A DNA stretch of 64,000 bases from Escherichia phage NHEP1 (PQ511146.1), one strand, 5' to 3'. Shown: positions 39,469 through 40,518, numbered from the stretch's first letter. Numbers and translations are program-made. Notes: generated from the sequence alone by a model not told the origin.

Positions 39469-40518
39469 ATGAATTTAACACCTCGCAGCACCATGGTACA
39501 CGGCATGAAAGAAAAACAGAACGGCTTCGAACCGATGAGTAATAAAATGTTTGGTATGCCTGGTGGTATTATGGAAACATACAGCTACCCAACGCCAGTT
39601 GTTGACCACGTGCTTTATATTGACGATCTTGAGGATTTGCAGGATCATATGTCCCGTTTGCAAACAATTCGTATGGCACAGCCGGAAGAAAGTATCCGTG
39701 TAATTGTTAACAGCCCTGGTGGTTGCGTCCACATTGCCATGGCGTATTTGCAGGCATTCCGCGAGTCTCAGGCAAGCGTTGTTGTACACGCTGAAGGGAT
39801 GTGCTGCTCAGCAGGAACAATCTTATGGCTGGGTTGCAAAGAACGAACTGTGGCTCCGGACACAGAGTTTATGTTCCACTACTATCAAGGTGGCACCTAT
39901 GGCAACGGTGTGAACATGAATACTCAGGTCAACTACTGGAAGAAACGTTTTGAACGCCTGATCGAAAAATACTACGGTGGGGTTCTGACAGAAGATGAGA
40001 TCGCATCCATCACGGCTGGTGGAGAAGTGTGGTTGGATGGAGAAGAGCTGGCAGCTCGAACTGGTGCTATCATTCTGGACGATGAAAACATTCAGCGCAT
40101 TCAGAATGGGCAGAAACCGAAAAAGCTTTTGGCAAAAAGTGATGAAGAAGGTGTGCTAGGCGAAGCAGGCCTGCCAGAGATTCACCAATGCACATCTCTG
40201 GACGAGCTGGTTCACGCTGTTGAGTCTGCAAAAGCAAATGGTATGAAAGGTGATGTTCACACTGTGTTCCTGAATCTGCAGATGGAGAGTGGTGAGACCG
40301 TTAAGATTGCACTGGGTGAGATTACCTCGGAAGATCTGCAGCGATTCTCTGTGGTAGAGCTTCAGGACATTTTGTCCCAATTGAAAACCACCCTGAACGG
40401 AGGTGAAGAAGTTCAGGTTAAAGATAAGACCCGCAAGCGTCTGGTGGACAATATTATTAAAACAGCAAAAGAGCTCAATGAAAAAATCCTGGGCGCAGGA
40501 ATTATCGAAGAAGCTTAA
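39469..40518 (+). CDS. ClpP-like serine protease with about 150-aa C-terminal extension
   Basis: VIVNSPGG and GMCCSAGT (active-site Ser context) and MFHYYQGG (His) resemble ClpP/S14; C-terminal half has no recognisable motif. Confidence 0.55.
   Translation: MNLTPRSTMVHGMKEKQNGFEPMSNKMFGMPGGIMETYSYPTPVVDHVLYIDDLEDLQDHMSRLQTIRMAQPEESIRVIVNSPGGCVHIAMAYLQAFRESQASVVVHAEGMCCSAGTILWLGCKERTVAPDTEFMFHYYQGGTYGNGVNMNTQVNYWKKRFERLIEKYYGGVLTEDEIASITAGGEVWLDGEELAARTGAIILDDENIQRIQNGQKPKKLLAKSDEEGVLGEAGLPEIHQCTSLDELVHAVESAKANGMKGDVHTVFLNLQMESGETVKIALGEITSEDLQRFSVVELQDILSQLKTTLNGGEEVQVKDKTRKRLVDNIIKTAKELNEKILGAGIIEEA

What the first reader, a model, noticed from the sequence alone, without database searches (positions are those of the whole stretch)
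39469..40518. ClpP-like protease with its own promoter and terminator and a long C-terminal extension, outside the structural module
The N-terminal half has ClpP-like motifs (VNSPGG, Ser in GMCCSAGT, His in MFHYYQGG), but the gene sits in the nucleotide-metabolism block, not with the capsid genes where a prohead protease would be expected, and carries about 150 extra C-terminal residues. It could be a relocated prohead protease or a phage protease that engages host Clp ATPases.
Basis: partly seen in the sequence, partly recalled or inferred. Interest (0 to 1): 0.5.

Follow-up and report, generated by a model that had tools for sequence, protein, structure and literature searches.

The report
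Non-structural ClpP-fold phage protease (rV5 gp122)
This is the long-annotated but never characterised 'ClpP-like' gene of rV5-type E. coli phages: a probably active serine protease made with the DNA-metabolism genes, which is neither the capsid-maturation protease nor built to dock onto the host's ClpX/ClpA motors.

Summary
ORF 39469-40518 (+, 349 aa) is real and has a ClpP-fold core (residues ~45-215) with the quoted Ser and His motifs. It also has a disordered 42-residue N-terminal tail, a disordered linker, and a conserved ~100-residue C-terminal domain. The window is a Vequintavirus, and the gene is rV5 gp122, annotated 'ClpP protease subunit' since 2013, so the gene itself is not new. 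(1) It is unlikely to be a relocated prohead protease. The head module has its own XkdF/S78 protease (6021-6440) between portal and scaffold. gp122 is transcribed with gene 121 from a sigma-70-type promoter and ends at a hairpin terminator. Homologs in 11 phage lineages or contigs sampled all lie in nucleotide-metabolism, replication or early regions. (2) It is unlikely to dock host ClpX/ClpA. Seven mapped residues of ClpP's hydrophobic docking pocket are replaced, mostly by invariant charged residues, and three more fall in a deletion. The most useful new lead is a PhoH-like ATPase gene 0-3 ORFs upstream in 8 of those 11 lineages or contigs. Function remains unknown, as the literature also states. 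Verdict: a catalogued but mechanistically unexplained variant of the ClpP fold, of moderate interest.

The parts
39469..40518 (+). ClpP-fold serine protease gene (ortholog of rV5 gp122), 349 aa including stop
   Evidence: ORF list. Pfam CLP_protease 48.8 bits. PHROG 5410 at 1.4e-154 over the full length. 99.8% DNA identity to deposited Vequintavirus genomes annotated as ClpP. pN/pS 0.035.
39469..39600 (+). N-terminal tail (aa 1-44), predicted disordered, with conserved F28-G29 and Y40-P41
   Evidence: pLDDT 26-34. F28, G29, Y40 and P41 are invariant or nearly so in the close family. pN/pS 0.057.
39601..40113 (+). ClpP-fold catalytic core (aa 45-215) with Ser114, His137 and Glu186
   Evidence: pLDDT ~90 and Foldseek matches to ClpP chains. 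Ser and His are present in 151/151 relatives, and position 186 is D/E in 134/151.
40114..40197 (+). Conserved NIxRxQxGQxP segment followed by a disordered linker (aa 216-243)
   Evidence: N207, I208 and G214 are invariant and P217 is nearly so. pLDDT is below 50 for residues 222-240.
40198..40515 (+). C-terminal accessory domain (aa 244-349): helix, beta-hairpin, helix-loop-helix, with F293, E297 and R322 invariant
   Evidence: Alignment A5. Domain model at pLDDT 74. Only weak fold matches. An HMM of the domain finds it at the C-termini of about 10 further distant representatives.
39042..39070 (+). Sigma-70-type promoter (TTGACA-17-TATTAT), equivalent to rV5 P121
   Evidence: Scan hit at 11/12. 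Published prediction P121 in rV5 Table S4. Both hexamers are intact in the window.
39096..39407 (+). Co-transcribed small ORF (103 aa, ortholog of rV5 gp121), function unknown
   Evidence: ORF list. PHROG 5456, unknown function. Homolog at 31% identity in Klebsiella phage Iguana, in the same block.
40533..40554 (+). Hairpin terminator (equivalent to rV5 t122)
   Evidence: Exact match to the published t122 sequence. The fold is -17 kcal/mol with z = -2.1. The T-tail is weak.
38209..38997 (+). PhoH-like P-loop ATPase gene, a recurrent upstream neighbour (possible functional partner, not shown)
   Evidence: Annotated PhoH with PF02562 in rV5. Walker A GVFGSGKT and Walker B FVLIDE are intact. The linkage is seen in 8 of 11 lineages or contigs.
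6021..6440 (-). Head-module prohead protease (Peptidase_S78_2/XkdF type). It is not part of the ClpP-like unit but is the gene that fills the role proposed for it.
   Evidence: Pfam PF14550 at 64.6 bits. Annotated 'prohead protease' in BASEL records. A late-promoter-like motif lies at 6459-6468.

Best explanation
The gene encodes a catalytically competent serine peptidase of the ClpP fold (Ser114-His137-Glu186). It belongs to a widespread family of non-structural phage proteases. It is made as part of a two-gene unit (gene 121 + gene 122) from a host-type sigma-70 promoter, alongside the nucleotide-metabolism and DNA-modification genes, and acts in the infected cell's cytoplasm rather than in the procapsid. 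It has lost the hydrophobic pocket that cellular ClpP uses to dock ClpX/ClpA. It therefore most likely works without the host Clp unfoldases, as other ClpP-fold peptidases do (SppA, NfeD, phage prohead proteases). Substrate or partner choice would come from its own appendages: a disordered N-terminal tail and a C-terminal domain held on a flexible ~25-residue linker. Shown here: the fold, conservation of the catalytic residues, loss of the pocket, the transcription signals, the non-structural context in many lineages, and purifying selection on every segment. Inferred: enzymatic activity, oligomeric state, independence from ClpX/ClpA, and the role of the C-terminal domain. Substrates are unknown.
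For: Fold and motifs. Triad conservation: Ser 151/151, His 151/151, D/E at position 186 in 134/151. Loss of the docking pocket: the ClpAP structure paper lists L48, F49, A52, F82, L23, Y60, Y62, I90, M92, F112, L114 and L189. In the gapless alignment between NSPGG and the catalytic His, Y60, Y62, F82, I90, M92, F112 and L114 correspond to R77, I79, E99, H107, E109, T127 and A129. R77, E99, H107, E109 and T127 are invariant in the close family, and these positions are polar across 151 relatives. L48-A52 ('LFLEA') is a 5-residue gap. NCBIfam ClpP models score 32-40 bits against cutoffs of 228-308. Transcription: a sigma-70-type promoter and terminator bracket genes 121-122. Late-type motifs precede the portal and S78 protease genes. 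A separate head protease exists. gp122 is absent from the rV5 virion MS table. Homologs in 11 lineages or contigs all lie in non-structural regions, whereas a ClpP-fold prohead protease sits between portal and MCP. In ICP1 the block gp176-gp211, which ends at the homolog, peaks at 12 min, before the late structural genes, and ICP1 has its own capsid protease gp125. pN/pS is 0.035.
Against: No biochemical or genetic data exist for any member. The BF23 paper states that the function is 'currently unknown'. The oligomeric state could not be modelled. The pocket argument rests on a sequence alignment at ~20% identity, and L23 and L189 could not be mapped. Docking by another surface is not excluded. 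The best NCBIfam hit is the ClpP-related head-maturation model (61 bits, below its cutoff of 120). The BF23 homolog was detected at trace level in purified virions. The rV5 virion MS detected only 19 proteins, so absence there is weak evidence. A one-mismatch late-promoter-like motif lies inside gene 121. The C-terminal domain has no significant fold or profile match, so its role is a guess.
Confidence: 0.55

Rival explanations
1. Relocated prohead or capsid-associated protease. The ClpP-fold enzyme is packaged into procapsids through its C-terminal domain, as in protease-scaffold fusions such as lambda gpC/Nu3 or P2 gpO, and it processes head proteins.
For: The best NCBIfam and several PHROG hits are ClpP-related head-maturation proteases. 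C-terminal extensions on such proteases commonly target them to capsids (established knowledge). The BF23 homolog ORF45 was found at low abundance in purified virions.
Against: The head module carries its own S78/XkdF protease next to the portal and scaffold genes. gp122 has a sigma-70-type promoter rather than a late one. It is not among the rV5 virion proteins. Homologs are never in head modules in the 11 lineages or contigs sampled, and ICP1, Barba and BF23 each also have a separate head protease. The ICP1 block containing the homolog peaks before the late genes.
Confidence: 0.1
2. A phage-encoded proteolytic core that is driven by host ClpX/ClpA, or that mixes into host ClpP rings, to redirect host ATP-dependent proteolysis.
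For: The full ClpP fold, including the long handle helix, is present. An intact triad is present. This is the reading implied by the database name 'ATP-dependent Clp protease proteolytic subunit'.
Against: Seven of seven robustly mapped docking-pocket residues are replaced, four of them by invariant charged or polar residues, and three more lie in a deletion. The N-terminal region is unrelated to the ClpP axial loops and is predicted to be disordered. Scores are far below the ClpP equivalog cutoffs. Identity to E. coli ClpP is about 20%.
Confidence: 0.08
3. Two-component phage machine. The neighbouring PhoH-like P-loop ATPase is the functional partner of the ClpP-fold peptidase, as an ATP-driven or nucleic-acid-associated degradation system.
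For: A PhoH gene lies 0-3 ORFs upstream on the same strand in the rV5-like window, Klebsiella Iguana, ICP1, Vibrio PWH3a-P1, Pseudomonas phiPsa267 (8-nt overlap), Barbavirus (adjacent), Alteromonas V22 (adjacent) and a metagenomic contig. The PhoH Walker motifs are intact.
Against: The linkage may be inherited gene order in related myophages. In this window PhoH lies upstream of the P121 promoter, outside the 121-122 unit. T5-like, T4-like and Pakpunavirus members have no PhoH nearby. PhoH-family proteins are linked to RNA metabolism (my knowledge), and no unfoldase activity is known for them. The sample was small and partly hand-picked.
Confidence: 0.12
4. Catalytically dead decoy or structural protein that merely retains a ClpP fold.
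For: The third triad position is Glu here and Gln in 11 of 151 relatives rather than Asp.
Against: Ser114 and His137 are invariant in 151/151 relatives, and position 186 is acidic in 134/151. Purifying selection is strongest on the catalytic core (pN/pS 0.02).
Confidence: 0.03

Closest known systems
Cellular ClpP (MEROPS S14; E. coli ClpP, PDB 1TYF/6WR2)
   Same: Same fold, including the handle helix (Foldseek TM ~0.69 to target). Same NSPGG oxyanion motif. Catalytic Ser and His are in register, and an acidic residue occupies the Asp171 position.
   Different: About 20% identity, and far below the NCBIfam ClpP cutoffs. The IGF/IGL docking-pocket residues are replaced or deleted. The N-terminal 42 residues are unrelated and disordered. 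It has a Glu instead of Asp and an extra ~134-residue C-terminal region. It is encoded by a lytic phage.
ClpP-related phage head-maturation proteases (NCBIfam NF045542 Clp_rel_HeadMat; PHROGs 1684, 94, 2976, 133)
   Same: These are the closest profile hits outside its own PHROGs. They are phage-encoded, ATPase-independent ClpP-fold enzymes that often carry C-terminal extensions.
   Different: It scores 61 bits against a cutoff of 120. Those genes sit between portal and MCP, whereas this one lies in a nucleotide-metabolism block with an early-type promoter. This phage has a different head protease, of the S78 type.
PHROG 1827 / 5410 'ATP-dependent protease' family: ICP1 gp211, T5/BF23 ORF45 'Clp protease', Barbavirus CLP_protease, Otagovirus and Pakpunavirus homologs
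   Same: This is its own family (PHROG 5410 at 1e-154, PHROG 1827 at 7e-39). Members share the non-structural context and a frequent PhoH neighbour. All are uncharacterised ('function currently unknown').
   Different: Most members are short: 87 of 146 representatives are 240 aa or less. The rV5-type C-terminal domain is confined to a subset, and ICP1's extension is not detectably homologous.
Other ATPase-independent ClpP-fold peptidases (SppA/S49, NfeD, SDH-type PF01972)
   Same: They share the ClpP fold and have no AAA+ partner. Weak Pfam hits to SDH_protease and NfeD1b_N were found.
   Different: Those hits are below their cutoffs (17 against 31 bits, and 15 against 40 bits). SppA uses a Ser-Lys dyad (my knowledge), whereas this protein keeps Ser-His-acid.

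Membership tests
ClpP-fold (clan SK) serine peptidase superfamily | ClpP/crotonase-like alpha/beta fold with a handle helix | tested here: met
   AlphaFold model at pLDDT ~90 for residues 45-215. The top 50 PDB Foldseek hits are all ClpP, with E ~1e-9 and TM ~0.69 to target. Pfam CLP_protease scores above its gathering cutoff.
ClpP-fold (clan SK) serine peptidase superfamily | Catalytic Ser and His in register with ClpP Ser97 and His122 | tested here: met
   Ser114 and His137 align with ClpP in the HMMER and MAFFT alignments and are invariant in 151/151 relatives.
Bona fide ClpP (ATP-dependent Clp protease proteolytic subunit) | Score above the curated equivalog or subfamily cutoffs | tested here: not met
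   TIGR00493 scores 32.4 bits against 308.6, PRK00277 scores 36.8 against 249, and PRK12553 scores 40.3 against 228.
Bona fide ClpP (ATP-dependent Clp protease proteolytic subunit) | Hydrophobic apical pocket that binds the ClpX IGF / ClpA IGL loops (L48, F49, A52, F82; L23, Y60, Y62, I90, M92, F112, L114, L189) | tested here: not met
   Y60, Y62, F82, I90, M92, F112 and L114 correspond to R77, I79, E99, H107, E109, T127 and A129. L48-A52 is deleted. L23 and L189 could not be mapped. This test is by sequence alignment only.
Bona fide ClpP (ATP-dependent Clp protease proteolytic subunit) | Third triad residue Asp171 | tested here: inconclusive
   The residue is Glu186 here. The family has D99, E35 and Q11 of 151 at this position, so the residue is acidic but not Asp.
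Bona fide ClpP (ATP-dependent Clp protease proteolytic subunit) | Double-heptameric barrel and ATPase-dependent protein degradation | not testable with these tools
   No multimer prediction or biochemistry was available.
Phage prohead (head maturation) protease, ClpP-related | Score above the NF045542 cutoff | tested here: not met
   61.4 bits against a cutoff of 120.
Phage prohead (head maturation) protease, ClpP-related | Gene located in the head module (portal - protease - scaffold/MCP) and expressed late | tested here: not met
   The gene lies ~30 kb from the head module, on the opposite strand, behind a sigma-70-type promoter. The head-module slot is occupied by an S78 protease. The contrast case P0198 shows the canonical layout.
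Phage prohead (head maturation) protease, ClpP-related | Required for cleavage of capsid or scaffold proteins | not testable with these tools
   This needs genetics or proteomics. gp122 is absent from the rV5 virion MS table, which lists only 19 proteins.
PHROG 5410 / 1827 non-structural phage 'ATP-dependent protease' family | Full-length profile match | tested here: met
   PHROG 5410 at 1.4e-154 (aa 24-344 against profile positions 4-321 of 323). PHROG 1827 at 6.6e-39.
SAP / HeH (helix-extended loop-helix) domain, for the C-terminal domain | Profile or fold match to SAP, HeH or Rho_N | tested here: not met

The most novel reading that the evidence does not exclude
The PhoH-like ATPase and the ClpP-fold peptidase, which lie 0-3 ORFs apart in 8 of 11 lineages or contigs sampled (Escherichia, Klebsiella, Vibrio x2, Pseudomonas, Rheinheimera and Alteromonas phages, plus a metagenomic contig), form a phage-specific two-component degradation machine. 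In this reading a non-AAA+ P-loop ATPase replaces ClpX/ClpA as the partner, possibly acting on nucleic-acid-bound proteins. That would also give the widespread but enigmatic phage phoH marker gene a function.
Probability: 0.1. Interest if true: 0.8.

Novelty: new variant of a known kind. Interest (0 to 1): 0.38.

Why it matters
Genes of this family are labelled 'ATP-dependent Clp protease proteolytic subunit' in about 950 phage genomes of the collection searched, including therapeutic-candidate coliphages, ICP1 and T5-like phages. The label implies a partnership with host ClpX/ClpA that the sequence does not support, and no member has been studied. If the enzyme is an autonomous middle-phase protease, it is a candidate tool for host takeover, for turnover of early phage proteins, or for attacking protein-based defences. 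Its recurrent pairing with phoH, a gene used as an ecological marker but of unknown role in phages, offers a testable handle on both genes. For this particular window, the practical outcome is a corrected expectation: capsid maturation should be attributed to the S78 protease at 6021-6440, not to this gene.

Full report
WHAT IS THERE. The window is a Vequintavirus (rV5/FV3-like E. coli myophage). The 2.2 kb around the finding is 99.8% identical to Escherichia phage S127 BCL3, and 115 deposited genomes hold at least 80% of it, with most annotating this ORF as a ClpP protease subunit. ORF 39469-40518 (+) encodes 349 aa and is the ortholog of rV5 gp122. The 2013 rV5 paper lists gp122 as 'ClpP (ATP-dependent) protease subunit, 349 aa, 38,541 Da', with Vibrio phage ICP1 as its best hit (PMC3606486, Table S3). 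The gene is therefore long catalogued, and what is open is its function.

CHECK OF THE OBSERVATION. The quoted motifs are present. Pfam CLP_protease scores 48.8 bits against a cutoff of 20.2, and PDB sequence hits are all ClpP. An AlphaFold model built on 29 homologs gives a confident ClpP fold for residues 45-215 (pLDDT ~90). Residues 1-42 and 222-240 are disordered, and a separate C-terminal domain spans 244-342. The top 50 Foldseek PDB hits are all ClpP chains, with ~170 aligned columns and TM ~0.69 normalised to the target. Comparison with the DrSchubert ortholog (63 nucleotide differences, 6 amino-acid differences) gives pN/pS of 0.035 overall. By segment it is 0.057 (N-terminal tail), 0.02 (core), 0.071 (linker) and 0.087 (C-terminal domain), so every part is constrained coding sequence.

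The promoter and terminator claim is only partly right. The strong sigma-70-like site TTGACA-17-TATTAT lies at 39042-39070, upstream of the 103-aa ORF 39096-39407, not directly before the protease gene. It corresponds to the published rV5 promoter P121. The hairpin at 40533-40554 is an exact match to the published terminator t122 (fold -17 kcal/mol). The transcription unit is therefore gene 121 + gene 122.

NOT THE PROHEAD PROTEASE. The head module lies at the start of the window on the minus strand. It holds the large terminase (8167-9714), a Mu-type portal (6508-8064), a Peptidase_S78_2/XkdF protease (64.6 bits against a cutoff of 24; 6021-6440), a scaffold-sized ORF (5044-6021), a decoration protein (4637-5023) and a gpE-type major capsid protein (3576-4586). 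Curated BASEL records name these 'prohead protease' and 'head scaffold protein'. The late-promoter motif reported for rV5 (TGGTAAAATA) is enriched in the window (17 hits against 6.9 expected), and copies precede the portal and S78 protease genes. gp122 is not among the 19 proteins in the rV5 virion MS table, which is weak negative evidence.

The same two-protease layout recurs in other phages.
- ICP1 has the capsid-cluster protease gp125 plus the homolog gp211. The block gp176-gp211 peaks at 12 min, before the late structural genes at 16 min (PMC7567579).
- Barba phages have a head-module peptidase plus a 'CLP_protease' next to phoH (PMC6715854).

A genuine ClpP-fold prohead protease (P0198) sits in the order TerL - portal - protease - MCP, which is the arrangement this gene lacks. 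In profile terms the protein lies closer to ClpP-related head-maturation proteases (NF045542, 61 bits, below the cutoff of 120) than to cellular ClpP (32-40 bits against cutoffs of 228-308). An evolutionary origin from a prohead protease is therefore plausible, but present-day function as one is not supported.

NOT BUILT TO DOCK ClpX/ClpA. The E. coli ClpAP structure paper defines the IGL/IGF pocket as L48, F49, A52 and F82 from one protomer, and L23, Y60, Y62, I90, M92, F112, L114 and L189 from its neighbour (bioRxiv 10.1101/820209). Between the NSPGG motif and the catalytic His the alignment to ClpP is gapless, and it is identical in MAFFT and HMMER. With the numbering verified, Y60, Y62, F82, I90, M92, F112 and L114 correspond to R77, I79, E99, H107, E109, T127 and A129. 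R77, E99, H107, E109 and T127 are invariant in the close family. Across 151 diverse relatives these positions are predominantly polar or charged. L48-A52 ('LFLEA') coincides with a 5-residue gap. The N-terminal region, which forms the axial loops in ClpP, is unrelated and predicted to be disordered. This is sequence-level inference only, and L23 and L189 could not be mapped.

LIKELY ACTIVE. Ser114 and His137 are present in 151/151 relatives. The Asp171-equivalent position is D in 99, E in 35 and Q in 11, and it is Glu186 in this protein.

THE FAMILY AND ITS CONTEXT. tblastn finds the domain in 947 phage records. An exhaustive HMMER search finds 3,149 representative proteins at E of 0.001 or better and 729 at 1e-10 or better. 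Most are short: 87 of 146 are 240 aa or less, and 31 of 146 are 280 aa or more. I inspected 11 lineages or contigs, and none has the gene in a head module.
- A PhoH-like ATPase gene lies 0-3 ORFs upstream on the same strand in 8 of them: this window (38209-38997, with intact Walker A and B motifs), Klebsiella Iguana, ICP1, Vibrio PWH3a-P1, Pseudomonas phiPsa267 (8-nt overlap), Barbavirus (adjacent), Alteromonas V22 (adjacent CDS numbers) and a metagenomic contig.
- It is not nearby in T5-like phages, where the gene sits between dNMP kinase and holin.
- It is not nearby in T4-like phages, where the gene sits near gp32, gp59 or DHFR.
- It is not nearby in Pakpunavirus.

A DNA methyltransferase follows the protease gene in this window, in Iguana and in Barba. 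The linkage could be inherited synteny among related myophages, and the sample is small and partly hand-picked.

VERDICT. The best-supported reading (confidence ~0.55) is an autonomous, early/middle-expressed cytoplasmic ClpP-fold serine peptidase whose specificity comes from its own appendages, with unknown substrates. The rivals are a capsid-associated protease (0.10), a core driven by host ClpX/ClpA (0.08), a PhoH-partnered machine (0.12) and an inactive decoy (0.03). The gene is catalogued and common, so a specialist would not be surprised to see it. The mismatch between its database name and its sequence features, together with the PhoH linkage, gives it moderate interest.

Noticed in passing
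window 38209-41103 (+); L008 2215-6026; L009 3180-5586: The gene order PhoH - (0-3 small ORFs) - ClpP-like protease - DNA adenine methyltransferase recurs in this Vequintavirus, in Klebsiella phage Iguana and in Rheinheimera Barbavirus.
   Followed up: partly
window 11062-11160 (-), within the tRNA cluster 10818-11756: ARAGORN calls a 99-nt tRNA-like gene with a 4-base anticodon 'atcc' among five ordinary tRNAs (Pro, Met, Thr, Ser, Arg). It could be an intron-containing or frameshift-suppressor-like tRNA, or an artefact.
   Followed up: no
GenBank MG065644 (A147), MG065684 (A138) and ~17 other records: Records labelled 'Campylobacter phage', with host Campylobacter jejuni and no annotation, are 96-99% identical to this E. 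coli Vequintavirus over both the head module and the protease region. The host labels look doubtful.
   Followed up: no
window 1925-1934, 6459-6468, 8134-8143 (-); 39206-39215 (+): The rV5 late-promoter motif TGGTAAAATA (up to 1 mismatch) is enriched, with 17 hits against 6.9 expected. Copies precede the portal and S78 protease genes. One 1-mismatch copy lies inside gene 121, 254 nt upstream of the ClpP-like start.
   Followed up: partly
window 39550-39561 (aa 28-31) and aa 77, 99, 107, 109 of the ClpP-like protein: A conserved F-G-x-P-G motif sits in the disordered N-terminal tail. An invariant charged cluster (R77, E99, H107, E109) occupies the positions where ClpP has its hydrophobic docking pocket. 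This could be a new interaction surface or a docking site for the protein's own tail or C-terminal domain.
   Followed up: partly
window 8167-9714 (-): The large terminase (515 aa) matches PHROG 979 only from profile position 147 onward. Some related records annotate two terminase pieces (for example phage magaca), which suggests that split or intron/homing-endonuclease-interrupted terL variants exist in this group.
   Followed up: no
PMC10644984 (BF23), Table 1: The T5-like homolog (ORF45, 'Clp protease') and dihydrofolate reductase were both detected in purified BF23 virions at low abundance. It is unclear whether this reflects contamination or genuine packaging.
   Followed up: no
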